Part shown: positions 1 to 45,846 of the stretch, in pieces | How positions within the stretch are numbered: the stretch's first letter is position 1 | Layout: every line of letters starts with the position of its first letter | Assembly (NCBI GenBank): GCA_046563655.1 | Contig: CM102287.1 | Location: forward strand, 7,068,001 to 7,132,000 | Length of the DNA: 64,000 nucleotides | From: Yuukianura sp. NJ FZ-2021 | Lineage: Eukaryota | Reading direction: 5' to 3' | Made by a program: the position numbers and the translations under genes | Notes under the pieces: generated by a model | Database searches by the model: none | What the model saw: the letters and a program-made list of their open reading frames with translations, nothing else | Told to the model about the DNA's origin: nothing

Positions 1-153
1 CTTTCCTTCCTTCACTGAAACTTCACATGATGTAGTAGGGATCCAAACACTGGGAACAAGAGTTGTTTGGAAACGAATTACACTTTTGTGTAATCGTTTG
101 AGGCTGAAGATGGTTGTAGCACTGGTTACCATGGAATCACTGGTAGAGGCCAT
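1..153 (-). CDS. Possible 5' end of an unknown gene running off the window (MASTSDSMVTSATTIFSLKRLHKSVIRF...)
   Basis: ATG at 153 on the minus strand opens 51 codons to the window edge with no stop. An upstream ttgtttttcag acceptor-like site lies near 205. No recognisable motif. Confidence 0.25.
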   Translation of the reverse strand, partial: MASTSDSMVTSATTIFSLKRLHKSVIRFQTTLVPSVWIPTTSCEVSVKEGK

Positions 154-800
154 GATTCACTGATAGAGTCACTGATAACTTGAAAAGGTTAATTTTAGAT
201 GATCTGAAAAACAATGTTCAGGAACTTTCAACCTGAACTTTTACTGAATTGAAATAAACAAAAGGGATCTGACCAAATCTGAGAAGTTCAGATCAATCAG
301 GGCTTTTAACCCTTGGTTTAATGAATGAAAGTTAATTAGAACAATTAATTGTTAAAGAGAGGTGAGAGCGAGTACTTAGACCTGTACTTGAAGTGACAAC
401 GTGCTAAGATCGACTTAGAGCTAACAGAGCAAAAGAGAACAAAAGAACAAATCTAACTGCGTAGATGAGGGAGGGGCTAAGATGCCTGAAAATGAGGGAA
501 TTTTGAACCTAAATTTAAGCGGTAATTTTAAACTAGAAAACCGAGTGGAAGCGGCTTGGGCAATTCCACAAACACCCTCTTTGCAAATTTTTAATTATTT
601 AGGAAATTTTTTATTTCAAATTTACTACAAGGAAGTCAAGTTTCTCTAGGACATTAAATGGACATTGTTATTTGTTAAATGAGATCTAGGTTAATTACTG
701 CAATGAAGAAATTATTCTTTTGCTGCTTCCTAGCTTTCATCAGTTTAATACTCTCGTACTTTCGGAGCTTGCGGTTTTAAAGTAAAACGAGGAATCCAAA

Positions 801-3800
801 ATGAAACTTTTGCTAAGATATTTCATCTTCAAATTTTTGTTACTTCCTTCAACTTTTGAACAAACTTGTGGTAAAGGCAAAGGTACAACATGGAATGATG
901 TAAGTGTATATTTTTGAATTCCAAAAAACTATAAAACGTTTTCTAAATTTCAAATTTCTATAATCTTTTCACCATCCAAAATACAATTAATACATCTATA
1001 TGACTATTGCATTACATAAACACTCAGATATGTATAATAGTTGAGCTTTATTTAGAAACTAAGTTACTTTTTCAGTGGTTAACCCAATCTTTCATAATGT
1101 TTAGATACATGTTGCGCTACCCAAGCAACATCCACTGACGTCGGATACGTTTGCGAACTATCCAGCATTTCTGAAGAACTTACCGGATGCTTTCAGCAAC
1201 ATCCGAGGGACGACCATTGCCGATATCATCCAGAACACGGCAGTCGGTTCCGAACTTCCATATGATGATTCTAGTTTCTTCAGCGCCTATCCATGCGAAG
1301 ATGGATTTGAACTCAAAGGCTACGGAGACGATTTTGTCCTTTGCTCCAGAATGAGCACGGTTGTTGAAAACCACTTCGAATATGGCGACAAGAAGTGTGT
1401 CAGAAACTACTGTGATTTGAAAGCACTCAACGAAATTGACCAACCTGGAGAAGGTTCGGTTGACGAAGATGTTGTGAACAACAATGTTCGAGGATCAGAA
1501 GCCGATCCAGAAACTTTGTGCCCTGCAAATTACACCGCTCCTTTTGATTGCTACAATGACAAAATGTAACGAAACATTCACTTTAGCATTAACTTTGAAG
1601 TTTTAAACGGTTTGTTCAATTTGTTTCACTTTTTTACATTAGAATTTAAAGATGTTTGTCTTGGTTTTAGTATATGTAGCGCCACCATTTGTACCAAACA
1701 TGGAATTCATGGCTTTGGAGAGAACGGATACGCATGTGCAACTAGCAGCGAGGATAACATTTTGCAATGTCTGGATTGCTTACCTGAAAAATCATGTCAG
1801 AGTTACCAATATGCTTGTGGTGTGTTAAGGATTACTATGCCTGGTGGAGGAGATGAGACTCAAGGCTTAATATGCTGTTCAAATACAGTTCTGGTAACGC
1901 TTTCACATTATTTAAGTGCAATTCTTGCATTCTAAATTCATTTTTAAATTTTGATTTCAGGACGTCGTGCTGGTACCCGTCACAGACCCAACGCACAGAA
2001 AACCGACTTATGGAGCTGAACAAATTAATGATGCCATTGCAAAGTTTTTTGAAGATTCTGGACGGGATGTTTTCACTGGAACAGTTTTCGATGACACTGG
2101 CGATGGTTTTGTATACTCCGTCTGTCCGCCAGACTACTTTGTCCAGGGTTTCAATGGAGAAACACTTTTTTGTACCAAGGAAGCCCTGAAAATTAACGCT
2201 AGCTATCATATTGGTAATGGAAAACAATGTCTCCAGCAGCTATGCTTCCCCGAGGTCCCAGAAACGGAATGTGTAAATTCGACTTCCAATTCTCCAAAGT
2301 ACTTTGTTTGTTCAAATGGCTACGTCACGAAGAAAGTAGATCAACAGAGCGAAACAGTATGTCAGGGTAGAGGAATTCCTAATGAAGAAAGAAGTTTATC
2401 CAATCAGGGTCTTTCGTGTGACCCAGACAAAGCTTGTCCGGGCAAGTCTAAACCATGCGGTGTCATACAATACGAAACTCCAGACGCTCAAGTTCCTGGA
2501 TTGGTGTGTTGCAATGCTGCACCGGTAAAAATACTTGCATTTAATTTTTTTAATAATTCAATTCAAAAGTGGTGTGATATTTTAGGTTGCAGCAGACCTG
2601 TACGCTTACATAAATGATCACAAGCAAGAATTTCTGTACTACCACACTCGTATGGCGGTAAGTCATGTTCGTATCAGCTAACAAAGTATTTTTCTTCAAT
2701 TTTTTTTCCTGAAATTCAGAAAAGTTTTGTTGTAAACGTTGTACTGGCAAGTATACTTAATTCAAAAGAATAAGTGTCAAACCTAATTAAGTATTTCTTA
2801 TCAGATGGAACGAAAAACGCTGACTGTTGAAAATGAAACAAATGAAGTGTCAATGCTGTTTAATGAAAAAATTCAAGAGGACATGCACCCAGACGAAATT
2901 TTGCAACAATATTTCGAGCCCCTTTATCAAAAGAAGATGTGGCTGTTCCAGAACTATTCCGATGGTTATTATCCAGAAACACTCATCATGTGCCCAAATA
3001 ACACCTACGTTCGTGGGGTTCAAACTAATCCTGCTGCTGGTGACGCCTACCAAATCGTATGTAGTGAACTAGCTCCATACATGGAGAAATATGAACAGAA
3101 AATGCTGAACACGGATTACATTTGTCCAAAATTGGTAGTAAATCCTAAACAGCATATTGGAATCTGCGGAGCAAATACTATACAGTTGGGATACGAGTAT
3201 TGCACAGACGGACACTACTTTGCTTTGACGTATGGGCTTCAAGGAGAAAGGTGCCATGAAAATCCTTGTGGAGAAAACTCTGCCGTCTGTGGTATCACTA
3301 ACCACAAATATTCGCATGAAGTAGTCATAATCTGTTGCGAGGTAAGGCATTTCTCAAATGTTGACTAACTTAACTAGTTACACTAAAACTCTAACAAGTA
3401 AGATTAAAAAACGTAACGCAACTTTTCTTAGCCGCATGTCCCAGAGCCCATTAAGCTTCCGGACGCATTGGATGAAGAGGGTAACCTCAATCATGAAGCT
3501 ATCAAATTTGTCTTGAATCGATTCGCTAGAGAATTTCAAGTAAGTATTCAATTACAAACTTTTGAAATATAAAAATTTACATGAGAATTTGTAATCCGAA
3601 TTACATATTCACTGTAATTTATTTTAACTTTTTAGCGTGAGAATTGCGGAAGACGTGGAACAGTCGAAGAAGTTATTTCGTATCATCGGGAAAAAGATGT
3701 AAGCAACTACATTTCATTCTTTCATACTTATTCAATTTATTTTCGAGATACATTGGTTACATGTAATAAACCATTACATGATACATTTGAAAAAAAATTA

Positions 3801-4635
3801 CTAGTGTTTCCACATTTCACAATCGACAGAATAGATATTAACAATAGATATTACACTAATTTTCGAAGAATGCTTGACATACTTGAAATAGCAAATATAG
3901 GACAAATTAGCTACAAATTTTTCACGTTCAAGCATTGCATTACGTTCACACACTGCTTACGGTTGACGTATTCGTGATGCAGAAATTTAATGAAATTAAT
4001 GAAAAAGTATTTTCGTATTACATTTTTAGAACCTTCCAAGAACACTATTTGCTGCCACAATGGACGACTACAGGTCAGCGCCAGTCAATGAAGCAATCAC
4101 TAGTGGCTCAACGATTCCAGATGCACTAAAAGCAGCTTCTGGACAAAACGGTTACGAGTATTGGCTGATCGATGAAAATTACGACATGTACTACAACCGA
4201 CAAGAAGCACTCCGCACTGTTCTATGCCCAACAAACATGTTTGTCCGTGGACATGCTCCGCCTAACACAATTCTTTGCTCAGAGGAAGTACCAATTTTTG
4301 GGAAGCAATACACAACAATCTTAGGTTTAGAATCCACTTGCACCAGTAAGACTTATGGGGGATTAGAGGATAAATTTAGCTGTGTACTTGGGCAAGATGA
4401 GTGGTCAACCTACGGTGTTGTCTTTTGTACTCGCGGATTTTTTGGACGCAACTCACCAAGTTATGACACTCATCCTGAATGCAACGACGGCTTTCAATGC
4501 TCAAACAAGGTGAACGGATCCAAGGTTTGTGGAATGCTTGTAGGAGAGCCTCACATAACTCCATTCTTTTTGAAAATTATATGTTGTAATGAGATTGTGC
4601 CTACTCTTGTGTCAATTCCATCAGAGGACGCTTGA
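801..4635 (+). CDS. Secreted ~910-aa protein with four tandem Cys-rich modules, family not recognised
   Basis: Exons 801-899, 1105-1565, 1671-1893, 1961-2524, 2586-2657, 2805-3341, 3432-3539, 3636-3698, 4030-4635. All introns are GT-AG and join in frame (2733 nt). N-terminus is hydrophobic (MKLLLRYFIFKFLLLP...). Four repeats begin C-P/E-x4-V/L-x-G...C-S/T and end C-G-x13-17-I/V-C-C. No TM segment. Confidence 0.85.
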
Positions 4636-4764
4636 ACACCTTGTCTTGCGCAATCCCATATAACAGATATATTAAAAACACATTTACTTTAAATTTTTCA
4701 GAAAATTAAAAAAAAAAAGAATTAAAACCTGAAAACATTAACTTAAGTTCTGAATTTTAAGCAA

Positions 4765-6135
4765 CTAAATTTCATATGTAAACAAGCCATATGAAGTCCA
4801 GTAGGCAATATTGAACAAGAAAAAAATAGCTGGAAATCCAATTCTCGCAATTTTGTCTACCCGTTTTGCACGGTTTATTCTCATTTCATGTGAGTTTTTG
4901 GGCGTTTCAGCGTCTTCAACATCTTCATCACCGTCACTGCTGACATCAATGTGCGCAAGTGACCGAATCCGCTTCATGACCCCACCGACTGGTAAGGTCA
5001 ACCGGGTCATGTAATTGACCAATGCAAATTGCAATAGACCTCCAAATACCAAAAATTGACAAATGGCCGTCCAAACATCAAGGGCTTTAATGTACGACGC
5101 AGGCGGAACACTTCTGTTGATTCCATACGTTTGACTCACAATAGTCAGTATGGACGTTACTCCTAGGCTAACTCTAGCTTCAACTGCTGTTGGTTCGAGC
5201 CAAAACGACACCCAACTGACCAATACCAACATGGCACAAGGTATGTAAATTTGAATTAAAAAGAAACCAAAAGCCCGCTTCATTTTGACTTCTACGCCGA
5301 TACAACTGTAGGTCCCAGTAGATGTTTGGCTGCTACAGCCATGCGGAGTGTACGAAATGATACTAAATTGGGGCATTAGAAATACCCAACGTTGAACAGG
5401 GTTCCACGGCCGCCATCTAAGTACTACGTCCTTGGTAGTGTAACCATAGTTGGCCATTTTGAAGGGACAGATTTGGACATCCATGGGATAACTTCTAAGG
5501 TTCATAGGACAGGCCAGGAGAAGTGTAAATCGAAAACTTTGGAGAACAGTTCCATTGGGGTAGATCCGAGTAAAAATGTTTGGAGCAACCAGTTGATGCA
5601 GAATTCCATTCTTTTCGTTTTCGAAAAAGACGTCGGGCATCCAAATTCTGTTGTGATTGAGGACCTGCAAGTACGTGACGTGGTTTTCAATTTGGTCGTA
5701 GCGTAGGCGTGGATCTAACCAGCGTTGACGATAGACGACCTGCACGGTGTACTCCATTTTTGTGTCATCCACGTTTTCGATACCACGGAAATGGACGTCA
5801 ATGTCAATAAGAGCTGGGCCGGTTCCGTTGATACCTTTTGGACGAATCTGAAATTGACGATTCTTACTTTTATTGAAATAGGTCAAGTAAAGTTATTCAA
5901 TTCAAAACTGGATTTAAAAAAGATCAAGTTTTGGTTTTACTTTATTGTCATACGTAGATCCAAGAACTTCATCCAGAATTTGCGATTTCCAACTTTTTGC
6001 GTTGATGTCTTCGTCCGTGTATTCCTCCGTTATTGGTGTAGTCGGACTTAGCTGTAGTTGGCAACTGACGCAAAAATTGGAATGTTCAAACCAGAATGTG
6101 AATAGAGCCAACAATTTGCAAAGATTATGAATCAT
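4765..6135 (-). CDS. Divergent glutamate-gated chloride channel-like Cys-loop LGIC subunit A (~425 aa)
   Basis: Exons 6135-5941 and 5847-4765 (phase 0 intron). Signal peptide. Motifs IWMPDVFFENEK, Cys-loop CPMNLRSYPMDVQIC, loop C disulphide CSSQTSTGTYSC, M1 QIYIPCAMLVLVSWVSFW, M2 ARVSLGVT, M4 RVDKIARIGFP...FNIAYW. Confidence 0.93.
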
Positions 6136-6740
6136 TTTGCACAATTTTGCGAATCGTTCAATCACCTTGTACTAGAAAGACAACTGTGCTAACTTAACCC
6201 TTGCCTCTTTGTAAACTGTTTTACACTATTCGCTTTTTGCTTCTATTACTTCACGGTTTCTTTAGACTGAGTAGTTAATTGATGAAAGGAATGGAGTTAC
6301 AAATATGTTACTAACGAGGAATTTGCATGTGAAAAAGAAAACCACGCCCACATTTTAAATGTTTTTTTTTTCAAATTCCTTTCATTACTAAAAGTGGTAT
6401 TTAGTAAATGAAGAGTAACACAATTATGCACTATATTTTACATCCTGCGTGATCTGACCCTGATAATGATGAATTATTTTCAACTGTTACCTTCCTTCCT
6501 ATGCTTACCCCTTTTTTAAGCATTTCAAATTTAGGTAGTTTCCAAAAAAAAAAATCCATGCGGTATACCCATCCGTGTTACAATTATTTTCCCCATATCC
6601 GTAAAAAAAAACCAAGAATTAAAATAATCATTTTTTGTAGTCAACCAGAAAAGGACATTAACGATTTTCAACTTTTATTTCTTTCAAATTTTGTGAAACG
6701 TATGAATTTGTTTCGAATTTTGAATTGAGTCTCCTGCTCC

Positions 6741-7301
6741 TTAGAAAAGTAGTGAGAAAATAATCGAAAAGACAATAAACTTGAGTCCACGATTCATCGT
6801 CGTTCCACTTCCTGGGAGAGCGTGATTTTGCTGTCCGGTAGACACGAAATTGTCGTCATCTTTTTGAAACCGCGGTGTTGTTGGTACATCATCGTCTGCG
6901 CGACTTTTACAGTGATCCAAAGTACCGTCATCAAACTGATTTTCCCCGGCGTCAAACTCTTTACAATCACTTATGCCGAGTGCCGCGCAGCATTTGGAAT
7001 AAAATTCCCTAAACTTCTGTCGAAGCTCTGGAGTAAAAGTGTAAGTTTCCAGGGATTCATGCCAATCGATCAAACACTTATCGTTCGTGTTGAAAATTTC
7101 GCAGAAAAGTGTTCGCAGAGTCTTTTGGCTGCCGGCACGTGACTGCAGTTTGTTTGAAGATGACGCCTTTTGCATTCCCTTCTTCACAATTTCGTCCACT
7201 TTGACGTCTCCTGTCACACCATCAATCCAAATGCCGCCGATCAGAACCACCGTCACGATCGTCATCCAACGACGACTTGGAACTGTTCCTGACAAATCCA
7301 T
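6741..7301 (-). CDS. Small signal-peptide, 6-Cys, probably GPI-anchored surface protein (~186 aa), family member 1
   Basis: Single coding exon from ATG 7301, with a likely 5'UTR intron at about 7338-7430. Hydrophobic N-terminus (WMTIVTVVLIGGIWIDGVTG), Cys pattern C-C-CC-C-C, Thr/Asp linker, terminal hydrophobic tail (LKFIVFSIIFSLLF*) with no cytoplasmic residues. Confidence 0.75.
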   Translation of the reverse strand: MDLSGTVPSRRWMTIVTVVLIGGIWIDGVTGDVKVDEIVKKGMQKASSSNKLQSRAGSQKTLRTLFCEIFNTNDKCLIDWHESLETYTFTPELRQKFREFYSKCCAALGISDCKEFDAGENQFDDGTLDHCKSRADDDVPTTPRFQKDDDNFVSTGQQNHALPGSGTTMNRGLKFIVFSIIFSLLF

Positions 7302-7847
7302 TTCAAGCAAGCAAGTAAGCACTGAATCGAACCAACCTGTACATTTCATACAAAAATTACTTTCACGAAGGGTAAGTAATTCCGAGTTATCGGTAATTTG
7401 AACTAGTTCGAAGTAGCGTGTCACTCTTACCTGGCTGAAGTAAATTTGGTCTCACCGAAGTTCGTGGGAACTTAAATTTTCTGACCGACTGTTCAGTGTT
7501 CACTCGGTTGACGGACGGATTGCGAGTGCGTGGGTGGAGCAGCCAGCCAAGTTCATAACGTGAGTGAAGCAAACATTTGCTTTTGCAAAAAAAACCTTTT
7601 AAATTTGAATTAGGTTGTCATGGCAATTTTTCTAAATTTTTTAAATGAAAAAGTTTCGAAAACTAGAAAAAAAAACTGAATAATCGCCGAAATTCACTCT
7701 GTGAATTCTTTTACTGTTCTCAATCTGTCCTTAGAAGGTTCAAGATACAGTGGGGGACTTAAATATTCAAGTTTAATGCAAACCTAATTAATACAATAAC
7801 ACTGTAGTAAATTTAAGAATTGTTAAATGCGTCGTATATATTGGATT

Positions 7848-9223
7848 CTACTGAAGCATTCCATAAGATATCCAGTAGAAAATGTTAAAAGTGAAGAAAA
7901 TTCCTGGAAACAAAAGTCTGGATATTTTGTCAATTCTTTTCGCCTTTTCAATTCCAACTTTCAACTTTTCCAATTCCTCGTTCTCAAGGTCATGATGCAT
8001 ATCACGCCCAAACTCACGTTCTTTAAATTTTAGCGTTTGAAGTCTCTTTAACATTGGTGAGGTCAAATGAGATGTGTAATTTACGAGTGCAAATTGAATC
8101 AAACCTCCAAAAATCAAAATTTGGCAAATTGCTGTCCAAATGTCCAAAGCCTTGATATACGAAGCTTGTGGAACACTTTGATTAATTCCATACGTTTGGC
8201 TCACTATGGTCAAAATGGTCGTCACTCCTAGGCTCACCCTGGCTTCAACTGCTGTAGGTTCAAGCCAAAATCCAACCCAACTTACCAAAACAACCATTGC
8301 ACATGGAATGTAAAATTGAAGCAAAAAGAAACCAAATGCCCTCTCCAATTCAATTTGCAAAATGAGACAACTGAATTCCCCGACAGTGCTTGCCAAATTG
8401 CAAACATCGTTTTTGTAACTTATTATATGAAATTGCGGCATTCTAAAGGATTTGCGTTGTACTGGATTTTTAGCAGTCCAGTCCAGCGTAACATCTGAAG
8501 TAGAGTAGCCATAAGTACTGAGGATGAGTGGACACTTCTGGATATCCAGGGGATAAGCTGCAAGGTTCATTGGACAGGAAAGTAGCAAAGTGAATCGAAA
8601 ACTCTGCATGACGCGACCATCCGGAAAAATCCGAGTGAAAACGTTCGGAGTGACCAGCTTATGCATTTTCCCGGTTTTTTCGTTTTCAAAAAAGACGTCA
8701 GGCATCCAAATCCGTTCGGGATCGACGAGGTGGAGGAAACTAATGTTGGCTTGAATTTGGTCAAATTTGAGCCGTGGATCGAGCCAGTACTGCCGATAGG
8801 ATATTTGAGCAGTGTATTCCATTCGGACGTCATCAACGTTCTCGATACTACGTAAATAAATATCGACCGATACATGAACAGGTCCAGTACCGGTTTGACC
8901 TTCCGGTCGAATCTGCATGAAAAATTAGAAACAAGTATGGGAAGAAATATTAAAAAAAAAAAAGCTAAATTTAATTAGAGCTCATGTGTGGATGCATTGG
9001 TTTTAAAACAATTTAAACAAATATCGAAAATTACCTTCGTATTGTATCCTCTTCTAACCAAAATTTCATCCAAGATTTCCGACTTGCGATTACTAGCATT
9101 AATGTCTGTCAAATCTTCCACCCCTGCCATCCCTTCCTCCAAATGAGTTGAACCTGATGCCAGGTCATTCCAGGAAATTTTCAAAAGAACCTGAATTTTA
9201 AGCCACGTCCATATCCACTTCAT
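7848..9223 (-). CDS. Divergent GluCl-like Cys-loop LGIC subunit B (~417 aa)
   Basis: Exons 9223-9035 and 8912-7848, with the intron at the same position and phase as in subunit A. Cys-loop CPMNLAAYPLDIQKC, loop C CNLASTVGEFSC, and four TM helices clearly paralogous to 4765-6135. Confidence 0.93.
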
Positions 9224-10641
9224 TTTCTAGCGGATGTATTCACCTTTACTTTCAGTCTTCTTTTTTTCCAAACTTCTTCTCAATTCTTTAATTTCACAGT
9301 ACACGGCTTTCGTTTTTCCAGTAAATTGAATATGACGCTGTAATTCATGGGCTATTAAAGAACAAAACTTTTTAGACAAAGAAAAAGGATGACAATGATA
9401 AGATGACAAATGATTTAGGTAGAGACTCCAAACCACCAAGTTTACTTCTGCGGAGTCGTATTTTTAAAAAATGCTCATCTTTTTTCAAAATAGCTCCAGT
9501 AGCACTCCACCCTGAGTAATTAAAGCAACACATTTGCGTGTTAAAAAACAATTTTGAGGTAAAAAAAAACATTAGGCGAATGGCAATTTCAATTTCGCGG
9601 AAATATTTTACTCGCACAGCAGCGGCGGCCGGTAGCAAACAGAGTTTGGGCGTGGACACGCCATTGGTGCATCATTAAATGCAAAACGTACAAAACAATA
9701 CAGCATTCATAACAGGACCTAGCACAGCATGCTGCAGCAATTGTGTAACTTTATGTTGTTGTTGTTGTTTACGTCAGTTATGATCCAAGTTACTTCAATA
9801 ATTGAGGTAACAATTATTGTTGGTACTTATGCGCAAGTAGGATACAGTTATTTTATGCTAATTAAAAGCCGGAATCTTGAAGATCTTGAAACTTTCACTT
9901 TGTAAACTCCCATTATCTCATAACAAACGACTCAAGCATAAGATCTCATTCATTCTAAAAACGGAAGGCAAGATCCTCCTTGCGCCTCATGTATTTCCAT
10001 TGTTAAGAAATTGGAAAACCCCTTCACTTAGCACAGTTCCCTTCAGGATGTAGTTTGCAGGGCTCTCTGTACCAAGACAATGAATTGTTTTTAGCATTTG
10101 TTGACCCAGTGAGAATCCTATTGTTGTCACTCTATGATCTCATCCTGTTCGTTACAAATGAGCAAATCAGGGGAGTCCCATCCATAGGCCTTCAACCATT
10201 TCAAAATACAACTGAAGTCACACCACAACATTCCCATTGTTGTCGAACGTAAAACTGCAGTACAACTTCACATGCAAAAACTCAAAACTTTAAAGATGAA
10301 ATACTTAAAGTTGCATAAAAACTTAACGTGGGACAAAACGTCTACTACAGAACTTAAAGTATCTTTAGTGACACTGAGTCATCAGGCTCCCAGGACCAAA
10401 AGTTTCACTTTTTGCTATAAAAGTACTTATGAACTGCTTGCCGAGTACTTATTTCTCAGTTAGCATCTGAAAGAGTAACGTCGATAGTTTAAAGAAGTTT
10501 TGGATCTCGTGAGATTCATGAAAGAGAAAGTTTTAAGTTCTGTTGAGTCAAACGACTTTGACATTCAGTTTCATTAGTGATCCGTGCGATTCACTAACAA
10601 TTCAATCTTTAACAATAACTTAAAAATCTTACATTGTCATT

Positions 10642-13245
10642 ATGGATTTCTCTTTTCCGAGAGTTCTTCTTGTCCTATTTGGTTTAATATTGACGAGCAC
10701 CGTTCAATCAGCACCAAATGCTACAAGTACTATACAAGGAAGGTCGAGACAAAATAAAGCATTTTTTGGAAGTGCAGAAGAAGATTCGGGTGAACTGAAA
10801 ACGATTTTTCCAGATTCTGGATCTTCTTCGGATGAAAGTTCGTCTGAAGTATTGAAATTTGTTGGAGCTTCTGGAACCGAGCAAAAACGGGATGTTTCAG
10901 ATGAAGAGAAAGCTATAGATGCAATTGTTGCAGCAACGAGAACTGGAAGGCAGCTAGATTTTGATAAAATTGATGAAGATCAATTGAATCAAGTCATTTC
11001 AGATCCGGCAATCAAAGAACAACTGGAAGCTGGAAATGAAGGCGAAGCTCGTGGAATCATTCGCGACAAATTGTGTGCTCTTGGCCTAATGTCATGTGGT
11101 GGACACAATCATCATCATCACCCGAAGCCGCATTACTACAAGCCACGCCCACAGCCATCCCACCATGCTCCACCGTACCATGCCCCACCACTACACGTTC
11201 CACATTTTGAGCCGCCCCACTATGGTCAAGGAATTGGGCACCTGCATGGTGGGTCCATCCCACCGCGAGATGTCAGTCTCGTTCAGCCAGTCGCTGTCCA
11301 GCCCGTCGGTGGGCCAATTTCGGCCATCCCAATTGGACATGGCCACGTCCAGATTCATAAACCGTATCACGCCAAACCACCAGTAGCACATTCCCCACCA
11401 TACAATGTTGGTGGATATGCCAAACAAACTTATGGACCACCACCAGGTCCCGTCTTTTCACGTCCACCAGTCCCACCTTATGTCCCACCAAAGCAGATTT
11501 ACCCCTCCCCCCAAATTTTCACGGAACCCATTACGCAGCCGATTATTCCTGTCCAGAAAAAAGTTGTTGAGGTTGTTCATCATCATGTGCATCACAAAGG
11601 TCACGGTGGGTCTCCGTTAGCAAAAGAAACCTATGGAGAGTACGGAGTCATCGGAACGCAATTTGGTGGGCAGGACGAAAGCTACTACGGAGCAGCTCAA
11701 AAACAAGTCGTTTCTGTTGCTACTCCAGGAGGTAAAGATGTTGGTTCCTTTGCGCAGCCGCAGACGCTGAATCCAAACTACTTAGGTCCTCCAAGTCACG
11801 CAAGAACATGCATTTGCGTCCCAGTTGAACAGTGTATTCTGGACGGACAAGAAAAATCATCTGAATTGGAAATTCAAGGCAGTCAAGGATCAGAAGTACT
11901 TCAAGGAACAGGAATCCCGAATTCTGGACTCGTTGGCTACGGAATTGATCCAAGGAACAAAGGTCGAAGTCTCGGAATCGAATCAAATGCAACTGATGAT
12001 GCAGATCAGGAAGATTCAAAACCGTCCGAAATCGTCAACGCCGACGCCGAAGAAACGACAGTTGCTCCCGAAGCGAATGTAACTACAAATTCAACTCGGC
12101 GTAGACGCGAAGTTTCAAATTCTACTGTTGCAGAAGTGCCAGTGACGAGGAAGGGCAGAGCGCAAGCAAGAAGACTTGACAATGGCTGTCGAATTCGAAG
12201 CATTGGATCAATTTGTTGCGATCCTTCCAGAATCCGTAATCCCTTGCAGCGACAAATTCCTGTTGGTCAATTGACAGGCCCAATTCCATCAAACAGCTTC
12301 AATCAACATGTTCTGTACAATCCGAATGGTTTAAGCACAGGTTCGGAGCCGTTTTATGGTCAGTGTGGCAAACGAAACGCCCAGGGCGGAATTCACGGCC
12401 GTGTCATCACTGCCGCTGCAAATTCACTTACTGATGGAGAAACTGATTTTGGGGAGGTCAGTAACCTTGGACCTAAACAAAATTTTAGTTTAGATTTTAG
12501 TTCAAAATTTTGATTTTTTTTTCTTTGAATTTTTTAGTACCCTTGGCAAGTCGCTGTACTGAAGAAGGACGGAACGTTCGTTTGTGGTGGATCTCTGATA
12601 GACGGAAACCATGTCATGACAGCAGCGCATGGAATCAAGCACCTAAAAGCATCTGACCTGCGCGTTAGATTAGGTGAATGGGATGTCAATCACAACACAG
12701 AATTCTACCCACACTTTGAACGCCAAGTAATCAAGGTCACTCTGCATCCTGAATTCTACGCTGGAAACTTATTGAATGACATTGCCATTTTGCGATTCGA
12801 TGGTGGCGTAGATTTTAGACAATTTCCACACGTGAGCCCCGTTTGCCTTGCACCTCAAGGAACAAATATGGCTGGAAAACGCTGTTTCGTCACAGGATGG
12901 GGCAAGGATTCCTTCGGGAAGGGCGGAAAGTACCAAAATGTGCTGAAGGAAATTGATCTTCCAATTTTGACCAACTTTGACTGTGAGCAGAAGTTGAAGA
13001 GGACAAGACTTGGACCAGACTTTGTTTTGAATCCAGGATTTTTGTGTGCTGGTGGTGAGGCTGGGAAGGACAGTTGTAAGGGGGATGGAGGGGGGCCTTT
13101 GGTGTGTGAAATCCAATCAGGGTCGTGGGCTCAAGTGGGCATTGTAAGCTGGGGAGTCGGGTGTGGGGAGCGGGATGTTCCGGGAGTTTACGTTGCAGTA
13201 GAACACTATCAGCCATGGATTCAGCAAGTGGTCAGCAGCATTTGA
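10642..13245 (+). CDS. Clip-domain serine protease homologue (non-catalytic, PPAF-II/masquerade-like), ~840 aa, with His/Pro-rich region
   Basis: Exons 10642-12456 and 12538-13245 join as FGE|YPWQV. Signal peptide. Clip cysteines CICVPVEQC...C...CC. Trypsin domain has TAAH, DIA and GDGGGP (catalytic Ser replaced by Gly). AATAAA at 13413. Confidence 0.93.
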
Positions 13246-13782: not shown

Positions 13783-16325
13783 CCAAGTCATGCTGCCCTT
13801 ATGCAACCGCAACCGTTAGCCCTGAATTCGATACTCTCCAGGTAGTACTTTGGTGGTTTTGAGCAGGTGAACATAAACGTTTAACTTTTAGAACAAACTG
13901 AGGAAAATGTGATTTAGGACAGATTCAACCATGGTGATGATGACTTGAGTGAAAAAGTGAGGAAAGCACGATGTTACCGTTGTGAAGACTAGAGAAACTT
14001 TGGCCATCATCCGTAAGTGCCTCCATTTGCTGCGACGTGTGTTGATGGGTGATGATGATGGGATCCTGAGAAGATTTTTCAAAATGGGCAGGATTTTGAC
14101 CCTTAGCCTTTATGGAGGCTGATTGAAATTGAGAAAACTAAGACTGGATTCTGGATATCGAGAACCAGTAAACCCAAAAATAGAAGTGGCCATTGAGTGA
14201 CCGAGATGAGTCTCTCGTATGCCATTATTCTCAGGCAATAAAGGAACAGGAAATGGGCTTCTGGACCCAACCTAGGAACGGGACATGTGAATTTTTAAAG
14301 TGGTTCGTGATGAGAGCCATTATGGGTTTTCAAAGTACTTTTCTGGATTTTGAGGGTGGTCAAAGGGGATTTTGAGCTTAGAAGTGGTTAGTAGGAAATA
14401 AGTGGAATTCCCACTAACTGGCTTAAGCCAGTTGAAGAGAATTCTTCTTTACGTTTTTCTAAAAATTTAGTGATTGAAGTAGCTCATCTTCCAAAAATAG
14501 ATCGAGTCGAACTCATTCAGTTTTGAAATATAGAAGAAGTTTTTCCATTACGGTGAGAATGGAAAGGCTGTGATTCGATGCAAAAAAAAAAAAAAGAAGA
14601 AAAAAAAATGAACAAACTTTTATTAAACTTTTAATTTTTGAAATCAAACTTTTCGTTTTGTGTTTTCGATGTTGATTGGCAGCAGAATGGATTAATTAAT
14701 ATTTTATTTTCAGTAAGCAGGAAAGGTTACATACGATTTTATTTGAGCGAAATGAGTTAATTTTTGAGTCTCAAAGTTTAAGTTTAGTGATTTTGATTAT
14801 CTTTTCGTTGAGAATGTTCTTATTTCATCGATGGGTTTACCGCCTTTCGTAGTCATTACTTCCGGTGTGACTCGTTTCGCCATGACATCCGACACTTAGA
14901 TTTCGGAGTTGTGAAGCGTAGAAAATGCATCGTGTCATGTCCGAAAAATGCTGTCAGTTTAGGTCAGAAAAAGCTTGTGATTTTGCGAAACGTTTAATGT
15001 AAGAAGTGATTAATGTGGATTTGCAGAATTCAAGGAAATAAAAACACGTCGTTTGGTTTTTGAACTTTTCAGATGATGAAAATTGGAAGATTTTTTTAAT
15101 TTTTTAATTAGTTGTTTGAGCTCGGTTTACCAACGGTTGTCCAGCGGCGAATCACGATCCTGATGCTGTAATTCCATCGAAACCTATGAAAAAAATATTT
15201 GTGCTGTTATATTTTTGCAATGTACAGGAATTTTGAAAGTTCGTTGCACTAGGAGTAAATTCATGATGAAGCGCAATGACACGAGCTTTAGCTTCAGAAA
15301 CTTTAGACTTCGGGTGGATGGACACAGCAAGAAAAAGTAAGAAGTGAAAGTTTTCTTTCCCCTGCTATGACCAGAGGGAAAGAAAATCTTTTTATGAATT
15401 CTGCCGTGGTAAGGGCTTTCATTCATGCGTTTGGTCTCTTGACTCGTGAAAGAAGTAAAAGAAAGTGTGTACTTGGGACCTACTTGCTAAAGGGCTAAAG
15501 GTGGAGTAGCAGAAGTGGTAGAAAGTAAAAGTGAAAGTTTATTTGCCCTTGTTTTTCTCCCTTCCTTCCGTTTTGTCTATGCCTCAACTTGCCTCTTTTT
15601 TTAACTTTCTCTCATGGACTTTCCCGATTCTTGCTCAGTTGGTCGTAAAAGGATTTGTGGCCAAGAGCACAGGAGAACTTGAGTCGAGAGATGAAAACAA
15701 CGTTTTTTTACCTTCTTAAGAATGAATAACTGGAGGAGGTCTGCCATGAATAAGCAACTGTTCCACAAACTTTTGTGGGTCCATGGAGTAGGAGAAAGCT
15801 TAACCAAGTCGATCTACACTTGAAACGTTGGTTTTTTTTTCTAGGATTTTTTTTGCACTTAAGTCAGTTCGGAAAGGTTTGAAATTTTCAAGTTTTGTAG
15901 CGTGCTCACTTTTTGCGCTTGAATGAAAACTGGACTTGGAGAAAGTTTTAATCTGGTTTTCATTTTCTGTTAGGTTCTGCGGCAAAGTCAACAAAAATTG
16001 AAAAAAAAAAAAATGTCTCATGTCCACTGTAGTTAAAAAGAAAAACCCGAAAATCTCCTTAGCATCTCTATGGTGATCTGATGAGAACCACTGTAGATTC
16101 AAGCAATATGTTTGTTAGGCTAAAAGCAAAAACAATTAAATTGTTCAATTATAAATTATTACAACTTGAAATTTAAAATTTAGTGGGCTGCCCACGGTTG
16201 GTGGATTATTTACTAACCCTCGGACTGTCAGGAATTTACCTTAATTTTTAACTTAAAACAGCTTAATTTTCATTTTTGAGGTCATACTAACGTCCTAATA
16301 ACCTCCAAAAAGAAATCACAGCGAA

Positions 16326-16901
16326 ATGGGGTTACTACTACGAAGTGACATGGCACTCGTCACTGTATTTTCAGCAGTTCTGGTTCTTCATGCATGTTAT
16401 GCAGCAGATCTGTACGAATCGTGCAGCGATAACGACTGCGTCATTGACAGAACGCTGAATAGCGGTGCATTCTACGAAGAACTGGAGTGGAGATGGATGC
16501 TGTTGGAATGTAAACCAAACCAAAGTTTAAGTGAAAGAGAACAGGGTTTTCTGAGGCTATCGGAATACTTCGAAAGAATCGCCGCCGGAATTCATTACCT
16601 GATCGACTTGCCATTTGGTGTTTATCCCTATCTCCACGTGGTTTGCGAAGAACTCTATCACGTATGCTGTATGGGACCGGTATACGACAACAAAACATTA
16701 ATTTGCGACGAGGGATTTCGAAAGTATTCGGCTGAATCGCGACTTAAAAAATTGCGACCATCGGCCTTCTTCACAATTACATCGACTAGGACTACTCCCA
16801 TGCCTTTTGAGTTCAACAATTCCGCCAGCGCTCTTGGACTGTGTAGGGATTGTCAAATCACGGCGCAAGTTGGTTTTCTATTCCTCGTTTGGGTGCATTG
16901 A
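16326..16901 (+). CDS. Small Cys-containing, probably GPI-anchored surface protein (191 aa), family member 2
   Basis: Intronless ORF with signal peptide, Thr-rich stalk, NNSAS omega-like site and hydrophobic C-terminus. Clear paralogue of 42582-43133, including similarity in the flanking UTRs. Confidence 0.85.
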   Translation: MGLLLRSDMALVTVFSAVLVLHACYAADLYESCSDNDCVIDRTLNSGAFYEELEWRWMLLECKPNQSLSEREQGFLRLSEYFERIAAGIHYLIDLPFGVYPYLHVVCEELYHVCCMGPVYDNKTLICDEGFRKYSAESRLKKLRPSAFFTITSTRTTPMPFEFNNSASALGLCRDCQITAQVGFLFLVWVH

Positions 16902-42581: not shown

Positions 42582-43133
42582 TCAATGCGTCCAAACGAGT
42601 AGTAGAAGACCAACTTGAGAAGTGATTGGACACGGTCCAAGAGTGCTGGCGGAATTGTTGAACCCAACCGGTGTGGTCGTTGACGTGGTCAAGAATGCAG
42701 ATGGTCGTAATTGTTTAAGTCGCAATCCAGCCGTGAACTTTCGATATCCCTTGTCGCAAGTATACGTTTTATTGTATCGAAATCCCAGACAGCACTCTTT
42801 GTAAAGGTCCACGAAGACTGCATGAAGATAGGGGTAAACATCCAACGGCAAGTAGATTAAATTGTAGTTCCCAGTAGCGATGTCGTCAAACAAAACCTTT
42901 TGCCGCTGAAAACCATCTTCTCTTTCAGCCTGAGTTTGGTTTGGCTTACATCCATACACGTTCCAGAAGGACTCCAGTTCTACGTAGAATGCATCGCTAG
43001 TCAGGCTTCTATCTACGACGCAGTCGTTATCGCTGCACGACTCGTACAGGTCTGCTGCATAACATGCATGAAGCACCAGAACTGCTGAAAAAACAGTGAC
43101 GAGTGCCAGGTCACTTCGTAATAGTAACCCCAT
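42582..43133 (-). CDS. Small Cys-containing, probably GPI-anchored surface protein (183 aa), family member 3
   Basis: Intronless paralogue of 16326-16901; 40 of the first 42 aa are identical. TTSTTTP stalk, NNSAS, hydrophobic tail. Confidence 0.85.
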   Translation of the reverse strand: MGLLLRSDLALVTVFSAVLVLHACYAADLYESCSDNDCVVDRSLTSDAFYVELESFWNVYGCKPNQTQAEREDGFQRQKVLFDDIATGNYNLIYLPLDVYPYLHAVFVDLYKECCLGFRYNKTYTCDKGYRKFTAGLRLKQLRPSAFLTTSTTTPVGFNNSASTLGPCPITSQVGLLLLVWTH

Positions 43134-45846
43134 TTCGTTTGGGTTTTTGTTTGGAGTATGGCCTGATTTTGTTGCACGTTTTCAAATAGGAAGTTCTCAA
43201 AAAATGCTGGCATTTTGGAATAAAATTTTTTAATCGTTTACGTTTGACGTAGGCGGATACTCACAATTAAACTTTTTTTTGTTTACTGTTGTTGTTTCAT
43301 AATAAAGAGGTTGTCTGCATCGATTGTTGTTTGTTGACAAACATTGAAGGAAATGGTAGGTAACTTTGTTTGACTAACGTCACTGGTGAACTGGTTTTCG
43401 AAAACAAAGACACTTCAGCAACACGCTCAAGGTAAAGGGAAGATAGAATTGTGAGATTTTGAACTACGTACTTAAAACAAAATTATTATTATTATTATTT
43501 TTTTTTATAAATGTCTGAAATACACAATTTCTGAATGTTTTGAATAACTTTTGCCAGAAGGGTTTTTTTTCTTTGATTTCTTGGAAAAATTTTTAAAAAT
43601 TTAGCGAAACATTAGTATAACGTAAACCTGCCAGTGGCAGGTTGAAAATTTTTGAATTTGAGAAATTGAAACTTATGGCTAAATAAATATATAGTTTTTA
43701 ACAAAGTGAAAAACTTCATCCATCGCAGCCTGATACTTGTTACGCGTGTTTTCGTAACCCCAAATGGATATGTTGTAAATATATTTTAACTGCAACATCG
43801 ACCATTTACTTCGTACACACGTCTAGCCTTCACGAAGTGATCGGACCATCTTACAAATCACTTTATTGTCAAAAATGCGTTCCAAAATTTTAACATTTTC
43901 GTTTAACCTTTGTTCATTTCCTTCAAAAACAAATTACATTTTTTCTTGAAGAAGACATTGTAGAACGTTTGATCGACTAATCACAAAACAGAAAATAATA
44001 ACAATAACAAAAGTGTTTACGAGAACGGAAATCTACGTCAAGGTTTGGTATTATATTTTCTAATTGCGTAAATCAAAAAACGTGCTAAATTGTAAGAAAA
44101 AGTGGACAGACAATGGGTAGGATAACAAACAAAAATGCTGTCTTCAAACAGGTTTCCGTAATGGAACGTCACCATTCTACTTCAAAATTTCTTGTTCGCC
44201 TGACAGGGGTAATATAAATTCAATTCGTTTTCAGACACTACAACTAGTGGATCACCGCAATAATACGTCCTCACTTGTGTAATTTTTATCAAGGAACAAG
44301 TTCCTTCTTCGAATTCTTACTTAAAAAACCAGTTACAACGTAAATAAGGTTTTCTAATATTTAGAAAACACTTTCTACTTTTTTGTCTGTGAGCTACGTT
44401 TGTGCTACGGATTTCGAAAGTTGATATCGTTAAAAGGTTTTATTTGAATCTGCGAAGTTTTGCAAAGTTAAGGTGTGAGCGAAATTTTGGTACAAATAAA
44501 TTAAAACACACTTTGATCTTGGCAAATAAAAACAACAGAACCAAAAAATAGGTGAGATACTTTTTTTTTAAATTAGTATAAGTAAACTACTGTATATTTT
44601 AGTGCGCGATATACGCCGATAAATAGGGTACTAGCGTGGAACCCACATATAGTACACCTTTATATTGGTAAAACGTTGAAAGTGGACAAATGGCCGAACA
44701 GGCTAGTGCTAGCGTGGACTGATTCCAGTTTTCCATTACATTTTTCGATTCCATTACAACCAGTTTCGGTTTATTAGTGGAAAAATTTGGTTGCCAAAAA
44801 ATGCTCTGACGTCCACTAAACAGGTTTATTGGACGTCAGCAAATCTCCTACGGATGATAAATGCATCCAGTCCTAGGAGATTTGCATATGGAATTTCTTG
44901 TTTTTTTTTTCCGTTGTTGTTGAAGGTTTTCTCAAATTGCGCATTATCGGACTAACGACTCCAAAAAAGTGTTTTTTAAAATGATTTTCAGTGTAATAAA
45001 TTTTGATACACTATAATTTGGTCTAACGAAGGTTTCACATAACTTGATTTCGCATATGCCTTTTGTACTCTTCTTATGTCACGCTTCAACATTACAACAG
45101 TGACCATTAGCATACAGCTTTTAAAGTAGTAGAGCTACCTAAATTTTAGTTCAAAAATTAATGAAGGTTCGACATTACGTATTATACTTAAAGACCTGGG
45201 ATGATCTTCGTCATCAGTATTTTTTCCCAATTTTTAGTTCTCATTCAGTCTATTAAATTTGACCATATAATGGTGGTTAACCTTTAAGGTGGTCCATCTG
45301 AAGCGAACTTTTAAAAGTAATTTTCCTTGTTCCTTCGCATGATGAAGATCAAATTATTTTCTGGAAAACAACAAAAAACTTGCGAAACGGCAACAAAATC
45401 CTAACTTCCTTGCTAAAAGTTGTTTTAGTCACTTTTCGACTTTGAAGCACAAAGAAAAAATACTCAGATTCTCCTACATATAATTTATAACAAGATTTGG
45501 CAACAATATTATCAACTCTTCTACGTTGTGCTTTGCAGTTCGTCTAAACAAAATTAAATTTCTGGTAAACTCGAAAACTCAAATGTCAACGTTTTTTACA
45601 TTCCGAACTCACAGAGCAAGAGACAACAACGACACCATATACTTTACATCGATCAATCTTATTAACGAAAACTGATTGACAGAATAGATGATCTGCGTCG
45701 GTTGTCAATTTCAATTACGAAAAGTTAACGCGGAAAAGTAGCCTTTCTAAGAGTTATAAGAAATATGCGTTATTAAAGAATTATAAGTTTAAAAAAAATA
45801 ATTCCTTATTTCAGGAACAAGAGCGCAAACTTAAAGAAGTGCCAAA

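What the first reader, a model, noticed from the sequence alone, without database searches (positions are those of the whole stretch)
5173..8246. Both GluCl-like subunits replace the anion-selectivity PAR motif with EAR
Seen: the M1-M2 linker reads WLEPTAVEARVSLGVT in both genes (codons 5173-5181 and 8238-8246). Established: anionic Cys-loop receptors (GluCl, GlyR, RDL) carry P(-2')A(-1')R(0'), and loss of the -2' Pro plus an acidic residue near -1' is associated with cation permeability. The nematode GABA receptor EXP-1 is a natural example of a cation channel in the anionic clade. Inference: because the change is retained in two otherwise diverged paralogues it is probably selected, so these may form a GluCl-derived channel with reduced anion selectivity or cation (excitatory) permeability. 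The Glu is at -2', not the canonical -1', so the outcome is uncertain.
Basis: partly seen in the sequence, partly recalled or inferred. Interest (0 to 1): 0.8.

Follow-up and report, generated by a model that had tools for sequence, protein, structure and literature searches.

The report
Springtail-type GluCl genes with acidic pore ring
Two neighbouring genes for glutamate-gated-chloride-channel relatives carry a glutamate instead of the usual proline at the narrowest point of the pore, a change conserved in a whole group of springtail genes and known from a laboratory mutant of another receptor to let positive ions through, so these channels may excite rather than inhibit cells.

Summary
Two intact two-exon pLGIC genes (6135-4765 and 9223-7848), 60% identical, both read WLEPTAVEARVSLGVT. 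The Glu aligns without gaps to the -2' Pro of crystallised GluCl alpha.

The motif is not private to this window. The same string is found in Folsomia candida, Orchesella cincta and O. dallaii proteins and in metagenome contigs. These form one well-supported, fast-evolving clade inside the GluCl group, and every sampled member is acidic at -2' (E, once D). O. cincta also keeps a canonical PAR GluCl, so EAR marks an extra paralogue lineage. The two window genes are old tandem duplicates under purifying selection, with 6 synonymous and 0 non-synonymous changes in the motif.

The single P-2'E mutation in human rho1 GABA receptor creates the same AVEARV and gives a cation-preferring channel (PNa/PCl 3.4). 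GLIC, a cation channel, carries its Glu ring at -2'.

Gene 1 keeps the glutamate-contact residues. Gene 2 and the Orchesella proteins differ at some of them.

The most likely reading is a glutamate-gated channel that is non-selective to cation-preferring. This is untested, and no expression data were found. I rate it a new variant of a known kind.

The parts
5941..6135 (-). Gene 1, exon 1 (ATG at 6135; signal peptide and N-terminal helix, ends ...TYDNK)
   Evidence: Open frame and GT donor directly after the K codon. The N-terminus is homologous to that of the Folsomia and Orchesella EAR proteins.
5848..5940 (-). Gene 1, single intron, 93 nt, GT...TTTCAG, phase 0
4765..5847 (-). Gene 1, exon 2 (IRPKG... 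to stop at 4765-4767): ligand-binding domain, Cys-loop, M1-M4. The whole protein is 425 aa.
   Evidence: Pfam LBD and TM domains; PDB match to GluCl alpha, E 2.9e-89; gene model
5155..5202 (-). Gene 1 M1-M2 linker and start of M2, WLEPTAVEARVSLGVT. The EAR codons are 5181-5173.
9035..9223 (-). Gene 2, exon 1 (ATG at 9223, ends ...GYNTK)
8913..9034 (-). Gene 2, single intron, 122 nt, GT...AG, phase 0, at the same position as in gene 1
7848..8912 (-). Gene 2, exon 2 (IRPEG... to stop at 7848-7850). The whole protein is 417 aa.
8220..8267 (-). Gene 2 M1-M2 linker and start of M2, WLEPTAVEARVSLGVT. The EAR codons are 8246-8238.

Best explanation
The window holds two old tandem paralogues of a distinct, fast-evolving branch of the glutamate-gated chloride channel (GluCl) family. 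Among named organisms this branch is so far seen only in springtails (Collembola), where it exists beside the canonical PAR GluCl.

In this branch the residue at the narrowest point of the open pore, -2', is Glu (once Asp) instead of Pro. A pentamer therefore carries a ring of up to five carboxylates at the cytoplasmic mouth, next to the retained 0' Arg.

Shown here: the genes are intact, the motif is conserved and under purifying selection, the clade sits inside the GluCl group, and gene 1 keeps the glutamate-contact residues.

Inferred: by analogy with the rho1 GABA receptor P-2'E mutant and with GLIC, the ring attracts cations and weakens chloride selection. The channels would then be glutamate-gated and non-selective to cation-preferring, and so depolarising rather than inhibitory.

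Also inferred, more weakly: gene 2 has changes on the principal (loop C) face but an intact complementary face, so it may work as a partner subunit of gene 1.
For: Identity and anatomy:
- Pfam LBD and TM domains.
- Best PDB relative is GluCl alpha, E 2.9e-89, with E paired gap-free to P-2'.
- Cys-loop C-x13-C and the loop-C Cys pair are present in both genes.

Clade:
- The identical WLEPTAVEARVSLGVT is found in 4 of the 120 listed homologues: Folsomia candida, Orchesella dallaii, O. cincta and one ENA metagenome protein. The other 116 have PAR.
- In the profile search those four score 648-669 bits and the next hit scores 569.
- 5 of 5 metagenome loci read EAR, all from one sample.
- The clade of 8 rows (7 EAR, 1 DAR) has support 100* by FastTree and 99* by IQ-TREE, with the triplet columns removed. 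It lies inside a 52-row GluCl group (100*).

Extra paralogue:
- O. cincta has both canonical P0307 (PAR, 92% identical to the Allacma fusca PAR GluCl) and EAR P0031.

Selection:
- The motif shows 6 synonymous and 0 non-synonymous differences.
- dN/dS is 0.30/2.04 over exon 2 and 0.088/1.47 over M1-M3.
- EAR proteins are 45-60% identical between lineages, against 92% for the canonical GluCl of two springtails, yet the linker and M2 are nearly invariant.

Mechanism, from the literature:
- rho1 P290E (-2') gives AVEARV with PNa/PCl 3.4 +/- 1.2 and PK/PCl 2.1 +/- 0.7. P290A gives 0.05, P290K 0.09 and wild type 0. -2'E was among the most cation-selective positions of a scan from -12' to 20' (PMC2174155).
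- GLIC carries its Glu ring at -2', which forms a cation site (PMC3590989, passages).
- The open-pore restriction lies at -2' and 2' (PMC3345530, passage).
- LGC-50 is a natural cation channel in the anionic clade with its -2' Pro replaced (PMC8536830, passages).

Ligand:
- Gene 1 keeps R37, R56, F91, S121, Y151, T197 and Y200. It has S150N, where the contact is through the backbone (residue list).
Against: - No permeation measurement exists for any member of this clade.
- The mutational precedent comes from a GABA receptor whose 2' residue is an unusual Pro. Its authors note that the cation selectivity is weaker than in true cationic receptors and that the ionisation state of the five glutamates is unknown.
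- The 0' Arg, the 13' Thr/Ser and the rest of the pore lining are of the anionic type. There is no -1' Glu.
- The Glu could pair with the neighbouring 0' Arg or be protonated. Cymes & Grosman 2016 argue that side-chain conformation, not only the sign of the charge, decides selectivity (recalled; the paper is not held).
- If these subunits assemble with PAR subunits, the ring would be incomplete.
- Gene 2 (T197V, Y200F) and the Orchesella proteins (R56W) depart from the glutamate-contact set, so glutamate gating is not assured for all members.
- No RNA run was listed, so expression is not shown.
- The window's organism is not identified. It is an arthropod by an innexin's nearest clusters only.
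Confidence: 0.55

Rival explanations
1. The channels remain essentially chloride-selective. The -2' Glu tunes something else, such as single-channel conductance, rectification, block by divalent ions or protons, or gating, while the retained 0' Arg and the anionic-type pore keep anions as the permeant species.
For: R0', S2', T6', L9' and T/S13' are the same as in canonical arthropod GluCl. In rho1 the P290E change also shifted the EC50 4-5 fold, which shows effects beyond selectivity. The authors caution that the ionisation of the glutamates is unknown. Cymes & Grosman 2016 (recalled, not read) stress rotamers over sequence.
Against: In rho1 every Glu substitution from -2' to 5' raised cation permeability, and -2' did so most strongly. 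Neutral Ala at -2' left the channel anion-selective. The only departure from E in the clade is D, so it is the negative charge that is kept.
Confidence: 0.3
2. The EAR proteins are accessory subunits that work only in heteromers with the canonical PAR GluCl of the same animal. They contribute one to three carboxylates per pentamer, giving graded changes in selectivity or conductance rather than a switch.
For: A canonical GluCl coexists with the EAR gene in O. cincta. In copepods, GluCl paralogues form heteromers with dominant properties (PMC10038264, passages). Gene 2 has a changed principal face.
Against: Gene 1, Folsomia P0002 and others keep a complete agonist site on both faces, as expected of subunits able to form homomers. 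No co-expression or assembly data exist either way.
Confidence: 0.25
3. The clade has moved to another agonist or is not gated by glutamate, so it is a 'GluCl' by descent only.
For: The clade sits on a long stem (0.59-0.85 changes per column) and evolves fast. The loop-D Arg is Trp in both Orchesella proteins. Loop C has T197V and Y200F in gene 2, and T197S and Y200F in P0001.
Against: The loop-G Arg37, which is specific to glutamate recognition (PMC4006026), is present in all 7 clade members that cover that position. Gene 1, Folsomia P0002 and P0130 keep Arg56, Ser121, Tyr151 and Tyr200.
Confidence: 0.2
4. The genes are decaying duplicates, and the shared motif is a relic without function.
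For: No RNA run was listed, which is not evidence either way.
Against: Both frames are open end to end, with a start codon, splice sites, the Cys-loop and M1-M4. dN/dS is 0.15 overall and 0.06 in M1-M3 with saturated dS. Orthologues are intact in three named springtails.
Confidence: 0.03

Closest known systems
Canonical ecdysozoan GluCl (C. elegans GLC-1/GluCl alpha, PDB 3RHW/3RIF; the single insect GluCl gene)
   Same: Same fold and domains, Cys-loop and loop-C disulfide. The glutamate-contact residues are kept in gene 1. The M2 lining is the same from 0' to 13'. The clade is placed inside the GluCl group.
   Different: - -2' is Glu, not Pro.
- The linker is ...EPTAVEA... against ...DQxAVPA..., so a Pro now stands at -6' and the net charge over -9' to 0' is -1 instead of 0.
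- Identity to canonical GluCl is only 39-51%.
- The M3 'ivermectin' Gly is Ala or Ser.
- It is an extra gene beside the canonical one, whereas the beetle inventory read here reports one GluCl gene.
Human rho1 GABA-A receptor P290E (-2') engineered mutant (Wotring & Weiss 2008, PMC2174155)
   Same: The hexapeptide AVEARV at -4' to 1' is identical, in an anionic-clade homomer that keeps the 0' Arg.
   Different: It is an engineered single change in a GABA receptor with Pro at 2'. The natural clade has Ser at 2' plus further linker changes (E-7', P-6'). Only the mutant has been measured: PNa/PCl 3.4.
GLIC (Gloeobacter proton-gated cation channel)
   Same: A ring of Glu at -2' at the cytoplasmic constriction, which forms a cation site.
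   Different: It is bacterial and proton-gated. I recall that it has no Arg at 0' (Asn); no call checked this. It is only a distant relative.
Natural cation channels inside the anionic pLGIC clade: C. elegans LGC-50, EXP-1, LGC-35; insect GRD/LCCH3
   Same: They are paralogues of anion channels in which the PAR motif is altered and the selectivity is reversed or predicted to be reversed.
   Different: Their agonists are different (serotonin, GABA). LGC-50 has Ser, not an acidic residue, at -2'. None is glutamate-gated, and none carries EAR as far as the texts I read say.
Other divergent arthropod GluCl-like paralogues without the -2' Pro (Bradysia ASR, Pyrocoelia QAR, Araneus NIR, Hyalomma AVR, Schistocerca ASR)
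   Same: They are lineage-restricted, long-branched GluCl relatives that have lost the Pro.
   Different: Their -2' residues are neutral. They are not part of the EAR clade in either tree, and they are uncharacterised.

Membership tests
[quoted passage not shown] | Neur_chan_LBD plus Neur_chan_memb domains, with a 13-residue Cys-loop | tested here: met
   Pfam E 1e-37/6e-27 (gene 1) and 4e-40/3e-28 (gene 2). CPMNLRSYPMDVQIC and CPMNLAAYPLDIQKC.
GluCl family (by descent) | Placed inside the GluCl group in a tree with other anionic pLGICs as outgroup | tested here: met
   The 52-row GluCl group has 100* support in both trees, and the EAR clade lies inside it. Named anchors are nematode GluCl alpha/AVR-14 and insect, crustacean and springtail GluCl.
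GluCl family | Second (loop C) disulfide, as in GluCl and GlyR | tested here: met
   CSSQTSTGTYSC (gene 1) and CNLASTVGEFSC (gene 2)
GluCl family | Glutamate-contact residues Arg37 (loop G), Arg56 (loop D), Phe91, Ser121, Tyr151, Thr197, Tyr200 (list from PMC4266781 and PMC4006026) | tested here: inconclusive
   Gene 1 has all seven. Gene 2 has T197V and Y200F. The Orchesella proteins have R56W. P0001 has T197S and Y200F. The sequence is compatible with glutamate gating for gene 1. Binding was not tested.
GluCl family (anion channel signature) | P(-2')-A(-1')-R(0') motif before M2 | tested here: not met
   EAR in both genes. PAR in 236 of the 299 sequences of the census.
GluCl family (function) | Chloride-selective current gated by glutamate | not testable with these tools
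   Needs electrophysiology.
GluCl family (pharmacology) | M3 glycine and polar M2 12'/14'/15'/19' residues needed for high ivermectin sensitivity (PMC3345530) | tested here: not met
   The M3 position is Ala (both window genes, P0001, Orchesella) or Ser (Folsomia), against Gly in 4 of 4 canonical GluCls examined. 12' is Val.
Classical cation-selective pLGICs (nAChR/5-HT3 type) | Glu at -1', no residue equivalent to the -2' Pro (shorter linker), hydrophobic 13' (features recalled from the mutagenesis literature cited) | tested here: not met
   -1' is Ala, the linker has the same length as in GluCl alpha (gap-free alignment), and 13' is Ser or Thr. If these channels are cationic, they get there by a different route.

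The most novel reading that the evidence does not exclude
Springtails carry a natural glutamate-gated pentameric channel that prefers cations. It arose from the inhibitory GluCl by replacing the pore's -2' Pro with Glu and has been kept ever since. It would be the first natural glutamate-gated excitatory member of the Cys-loop superfamily. It would also be a natural counterpart of the rho1 P-2'E mutant, showing that one substitution at -2' is an evolutionary route for switching the sign of a synapse. The tandem pair in this window would supply the principal face (gene 1) and the complementary face (gene 2) of a heteromer.
Probability: 0.4. Interest if true: 0.85.

Novelty: new variant of a known kind. 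Interest (0 to 1): 0.68.

Why it matters
How pentameric channels of one fold choose between cations and anions is a long-standing question, studied mostly with engineered mutants. A conserved natural clade that differs from its chloride-selective sister at the -2' ring, on an otherwise anionic-type pore, is a ready-made test of whether that single position is enough in evolution. Its revertants are obvious to make.

If the channels are cation-permeable, glutamate would have a fast excitatory pentameric receptor in these animals besides the tetrameric iGluRs. Annotating these genes as 'glutamate-gated chloride channel', as in the Folsomia and Orchesella records, would then give the wrong sign.

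[quoted passage not shown] A second GluCl-type target is therefore relevant, especially one that lacks the M3 glycine needed for high ivermectin sensitivity. It bears on how macrocyclic-lactone effects are read in non-target soil arthropods.

Tried and rejected
- Plus-strand translation of the stated codons gave stop-containing nonsense. The genes are on the minus strand.
- No whole genome is held for the window, so I could not look for a canonical PAR GluCl or further EAR copies in the same genome. Within the window, tblastn finds only the two genes.
- Sequencing runs: no RNA holder was listed, only DNA runs. I did not lay reads.
- Earlier scan notes: none for this genome, none by sequence and none by words.
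- My first regex census of the motif was too loose and gave many false matches. I replaced it with an hmmalign-based census.
- Names for the unnamed EAR and DAR proteins: P0001, P0130, P0228 and P0235 carry no name or taxon.
- Origin of the clade: the trees leave its sister unresolved, in a 29-row polytomy with support 88. An AU test does not reject a springtail-specific duplication (p-AU 0.398; first run unfinished, finished). I did not run the second planned test, EAR plus the whole canonical clade.
- Cymes & Grosman 2016 could not be read, by DOI or by PMC id. Sunesen et al. 2006 on GluCl beta was seen only as a reference entry.
- The sea-louse 'new family of GluCls' was considered as a possible home for EAR and rejected. 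The passages read say all five subunits have roughly similar selectivity filters, and the currents shown there (CrGluCl-B and -C) are chloride currents.
- Pseudogene and assembly-error readings are rejected on open frames, dN/dS and conservation across species.
- I did not run structure prediction or complex prediction.
Full report
**1. The observation**

The stated codons give nonsense on the plus strand. On the minus strand, window:5152-5202 translates to WLEPTAVEARVSLGVTS and window:8217-8267 to WLEPTAVEARVSLGVTT. By codon count from those calls, the E-A-R codons fall at 5181-5173 and 8246-8238, exactly as reported.

Each motif lies in a long open frame (4765-5892 and 7848-8924, minus strand). 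Both frames match the Pfam ligand-binding and transmembrane domains of neurotransmitter-gated channels.

The best solved relative of gene 1 is C. elegans GluCl alpha (3rhw, E 2.9e-89), ahead of the glycine receptors (about 1e-80). In the printed alignment, 'fwleptavearvslgvt' pairs without a gap with 'FWFDRTAIPARVTLGVT', so the Glu occupies the -2' Pro position.

**2. Gene models**

Each gene has two exons, joined by one short phase-0 GT...AG intron at the same position, just before IRP:
- Gene 1: ATG at 6135, exon 1 to 5941, a 93-nt intron, exon 2 from 5847 to 4765; 425 aa.
- Gene 2: ATG at 9223, exon 1 to 9035, a 122-nt intron, exon 2 from 8912 to 7848; 417 aa.

Both have the 13-residue Cys-loop, the loop-C cysteine pair, and hydrophobic segments in the M1-M4 region. 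An unrelated open frame with no Pfam match lies between them. tblastn finds no third copy in the window.

**3. The two copies are old and constrained**

They are 60% identical in protein and 69% in DNA. Synonymous divergence is saturated (dS about 2). dN/dS is 0.30/2.04 over exon 2 and 0.088/1.47 over the M1-M3 block.

The 16-codon motif differs at six codons, all silently. This rules out recent gene conversion or a copying artefact as the reason the two share the motif.

**4. The motif defines a clade**

- Of the 120 best homologues listed for gene 1, four carry the identical 16-residue string: proteins of Folsomia candida (54% identity), Orchesella dallaii (50%) and O. cincta (47%), and one unnamed metagenome protein (55%). 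The other 116 have PAR.
- A profile of the EAR proteins retrieves the same four at 648-669 bits, and the next hit drops to 569.
- Among the 150 best cluster representatives of a 1.84-billion-protein library there is one more EAR fragment, P0130. There is also one fragment, P0228, with DAR and an otherwise EAR-like M2.
- A metagenome scan gave five loci, all from one sample, and all five read EAR.
- In the alignment-based census of 299 sequences the triplet is PAR in 236, EAR in 7, DAR in 2, AER in 1 and SDR in 1. The rest have neutral variants such as PGR, AAR, TAR and SAR.

**5. Trees**

With the three motif columns removed, the seven EAR rows and P0228 form one clade. FastTree (83 rows) gives it 100* support, and IQ-TREE under LG+C20 PMSF (58 rows) gives 99* SH-aLRT. 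The stem is long, 0.59-0.85 changes per column.

The clade sits inside a GluCl group of 52 rows (100* in both trees). That group contains nematode GluCl alpha/AVR-14 and the canonical insect, crustacean and springtail GluCls.

The two window genes are each other's sisters (99*), so the tandem duplication is specific to this lineage.

The clade lies outside the tight canonical pancrustacean clade (98*), but its sister is unresolved. An AU test does not reject a tree in which it joins the springtail canonical GluCls (p-AU 0.398). A springtail-specific duplication followed by fast divergence therefore remains possible.

Rows left out of these trees:
- Representatives shorter than 330 aa or longer than 640 aa, and those beyond the first 62 that met the length limits.
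- For the second tree, all rows outside the GluCl group except six outgroup rows.

**6. It is an extra gene**

O. cincta has both an EAR protein (P0031) and a canonical PAR GluCl (P0307). P0307 is 92% identical to the Allacma fusca PAR GluCl.

The canonical proteins are 69-93% identical among springtails and insects. EAR proteins are 45-60% identical between lineages and 39-51% identical to the canonical ones. The beetle gene inventory I read reports one GluCl gene, with PAR (PMC12309072, passages).

So this fast-evolving paralogue keeps an almost invariant M1-M2 linker and M2: WLEPTAVEA-RVSLGVTTILTIVTQTYGINQ, against WLDQxAVPA-RVSLGVTTLLTMATQTSGINx in canonical arthropod GluCl. Relative to the canonical pore, the changes are E for D at -7', P at -6', E for P at -2', and I8', I11', V12' and Y16'. 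The pore-lining 2', 6', 9' and 13' residues are unchanged. The net charge from -9' to 0' falls from 0 to -1 per subunit.

**7. What an acidic -2' does, according to published work**

- The single mutant P290E (-2') turns AVPARV into AVEARV, the hexapeptide found here. It 'conducted cations better than anions', with PNa/PCl 3.4 +/- 1.2 and PK/PCl 2.1 +/- 0.7.
- P290A gave 0.05, P290K gave 0.09 and wild type gave 0.
- -2'E and 0'E were the most cation-selective mutants, and the apparent pore diameter was unchanged.
- The authors add that the selectivity is weaker than in true cationic receptors, that rho1 has an unusual Pro at 2', and that the ionisation state of the five glutamates is unknown.

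Other published points:
- GLIC, a cation channel, has its Glu ring at -2'. The ring forms a cation site and hands ions on from the 2' site (PMC3590989, passages).
- C. elegans LGC-50 is a serotonin-gated cation channel whose closest paralogue is the anion channel MOD-1. It lacks PAR because the Pro is replaced by Ser (PMC8536830, passages).

With the rho1 P-2'E permeability ratios and ion concentrations that I assumed for illustration, the GHK reversal potential moves from about -66 mV to about 0 mV. A channel with that reversal potential would depolarise the cell.

**8. Ligand site**

The contact residues of glutamate in GluCl alpha are Phe91, Tyr151, Thr197, Tyr200, Arg37, Arg56 and Ser121. 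The loop-G Arg37 is special to glutamate recognition (PMC4266781 figure legend; PMC4006026 passages).
- Gene 1 keeps all seven. It has Asn for Ser150, whose contact is through the backbone.
- Gene 2 has T197V and Y200F in loop C, but keeps Arg37, Arg56 and Ser121.
- The two Orchesella proteins have Trp for Arg56.
- P0001 has T197S and Y200F.

Glutamate gating is thus plausible for gene 1 and for the Folsomia protein, and open for the others. Gene 2's pattern, a changed principal face with an intact complementary face, would fit a partner-subunit role. That is inference only.

**9. Source organism**

The window's own proteins are absent from the protein database, where the best identity is 55%. 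The window is an intron-poor invertebrate sequence of 38.8% G+C with innexin genes. The nearest innexin clusters are mostly arthropod.

The only named holders of the EAR clade are springtails. In the trees the window genes stand apart from the Folsomia and Orchesella proteins. FastTree groups them with the unnamed P0001 and P0228 (support 93), but IQ-TREE leaves the inside of the clade unresolved. I take the source to be a springtail or a close relative, not proven.

**10. Novelty**

In the library searched I found:
- no paper linking springtails with GluCl or cys-loop gene families in a relevant way;
- no paper holding both 'PAR motif' and 'EAR';
- no natural glutamate-gated cationic pentameric channel among the listed results.

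Subscription papers and supplements were not searched. Public records name these proteins 'glutamate-gated chloride channel'.

Divergent GluCl-like paralogues that lack the -2' Pro also occur in a fly, a firefly, a spider, a tick and a locust, but with neutral residues at -2'. Losing the Pro is therefore not unique. The conserved acidic ring is.

**11. Verdict**

The functional reading now rests on a direct mutational precedent, but it remains untested. I rate the finding a new variant of a known kind, with interest 0.68.

I put about 0.55-0.6 on substantial cation permeability and about 0.4 on a truly cation-preferring, excitatory glutamate-gated channel.

Noticed in passing
window 46349-53863 (+): One uninterrupted open frame of 2,504 aa encodes a fully reducing type I polyketide/fatty-acid-synthase-like megasynthase in an animal window. 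The domains are KS, AT, DH, methyltransferase, ER, KR and ACP. The KS match starts at profile position 91, so an upstream exon is likely. Whether it is an animal FAS-like PKS or a transferred gene was not examined.
   Followed up: partly
window 5050-5090 and 8110-8150 (-), M3 of both genes; also P0001, P0002, P0008, P0031: The M3 glycine needed for high ivermectin sensitivity is Ala in both window genes, P0001 and Orchesella, and Ser in Folsomia. It is Gly in 4 of 4 canonical GluCls examined. M2 12' is Val. The EAR channels may be poorly sensitive to avermectins.
   Followed up: partly
gene 2 loop C (window about 8390-8430, -); P0008 and P0031 loop D: Gene 2 has T197V and Y200F, and both Orchesella EAR proteins have R56W, at glutamate-contact positions (GluCl alpha numbering). 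Gene 1 and Folsomia keep them. This may mean division of labour between subunits or a drift in agonist.
   Followed up: partly
proteins P0144, P0148, P0137, P0199/P0385, P0156; P0235, P0248: Other long-branched GluCl-like paralogues without the -2' Pro are found in Bradysia odoriphaga (ASR), Pyrocoelia pectoralis (QAR), Araneus ventricosus (NIR), Hyalomma asiaticum (AVR) and Schistocerca piceifrons (ASR). Two unnamed proteins have DAR (P0235) and AER (P0248). Loss of PAR in GluCl relatives seems to recur in arthropods.
   Followed up: partly
window 6741-7301 (-): An unrelated open frame lies between the two channel genes on the same strand. It starts MDLSGTVPSRRW..., has one hydrophobic segment and several Cys residues, and has no Pfam match.
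   Followed up: partly
window 59389-59988 and 60309-60764 (-): Two exons of an innexin gene (Pfam E 3e-52 and 2e-19). The nearest Atlas clusters are mostly arthropod.
   Followed up: partly
window 10624-13245 (+): A large open frame with a His/Pro-rich, low-complexity N-terminal part is followed by a trypsin-type serine protease domain (Pfam E 3e-49).
   Followed up: partly
window 16302-16901 (+) and 42582-43181 (-): Two paralogous open frames of about 199 aa lie in opposite orientation about 26 kb apart. They share a long N-terminal stretch (...EMGLLLRSD.ALVTVFSAVLVLHACYAADLYESCSDNDC...). The one that was scanned (16302-16898) has no Pfam match.
   Followed up: no
window 1105-4635 (+): A run of four Cys-rich open frames of 150-220 aa on one strand looks like a tandem family or the exons of one secreted protein. 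The one that was scanned has no Pfam match.
   Followed up: no
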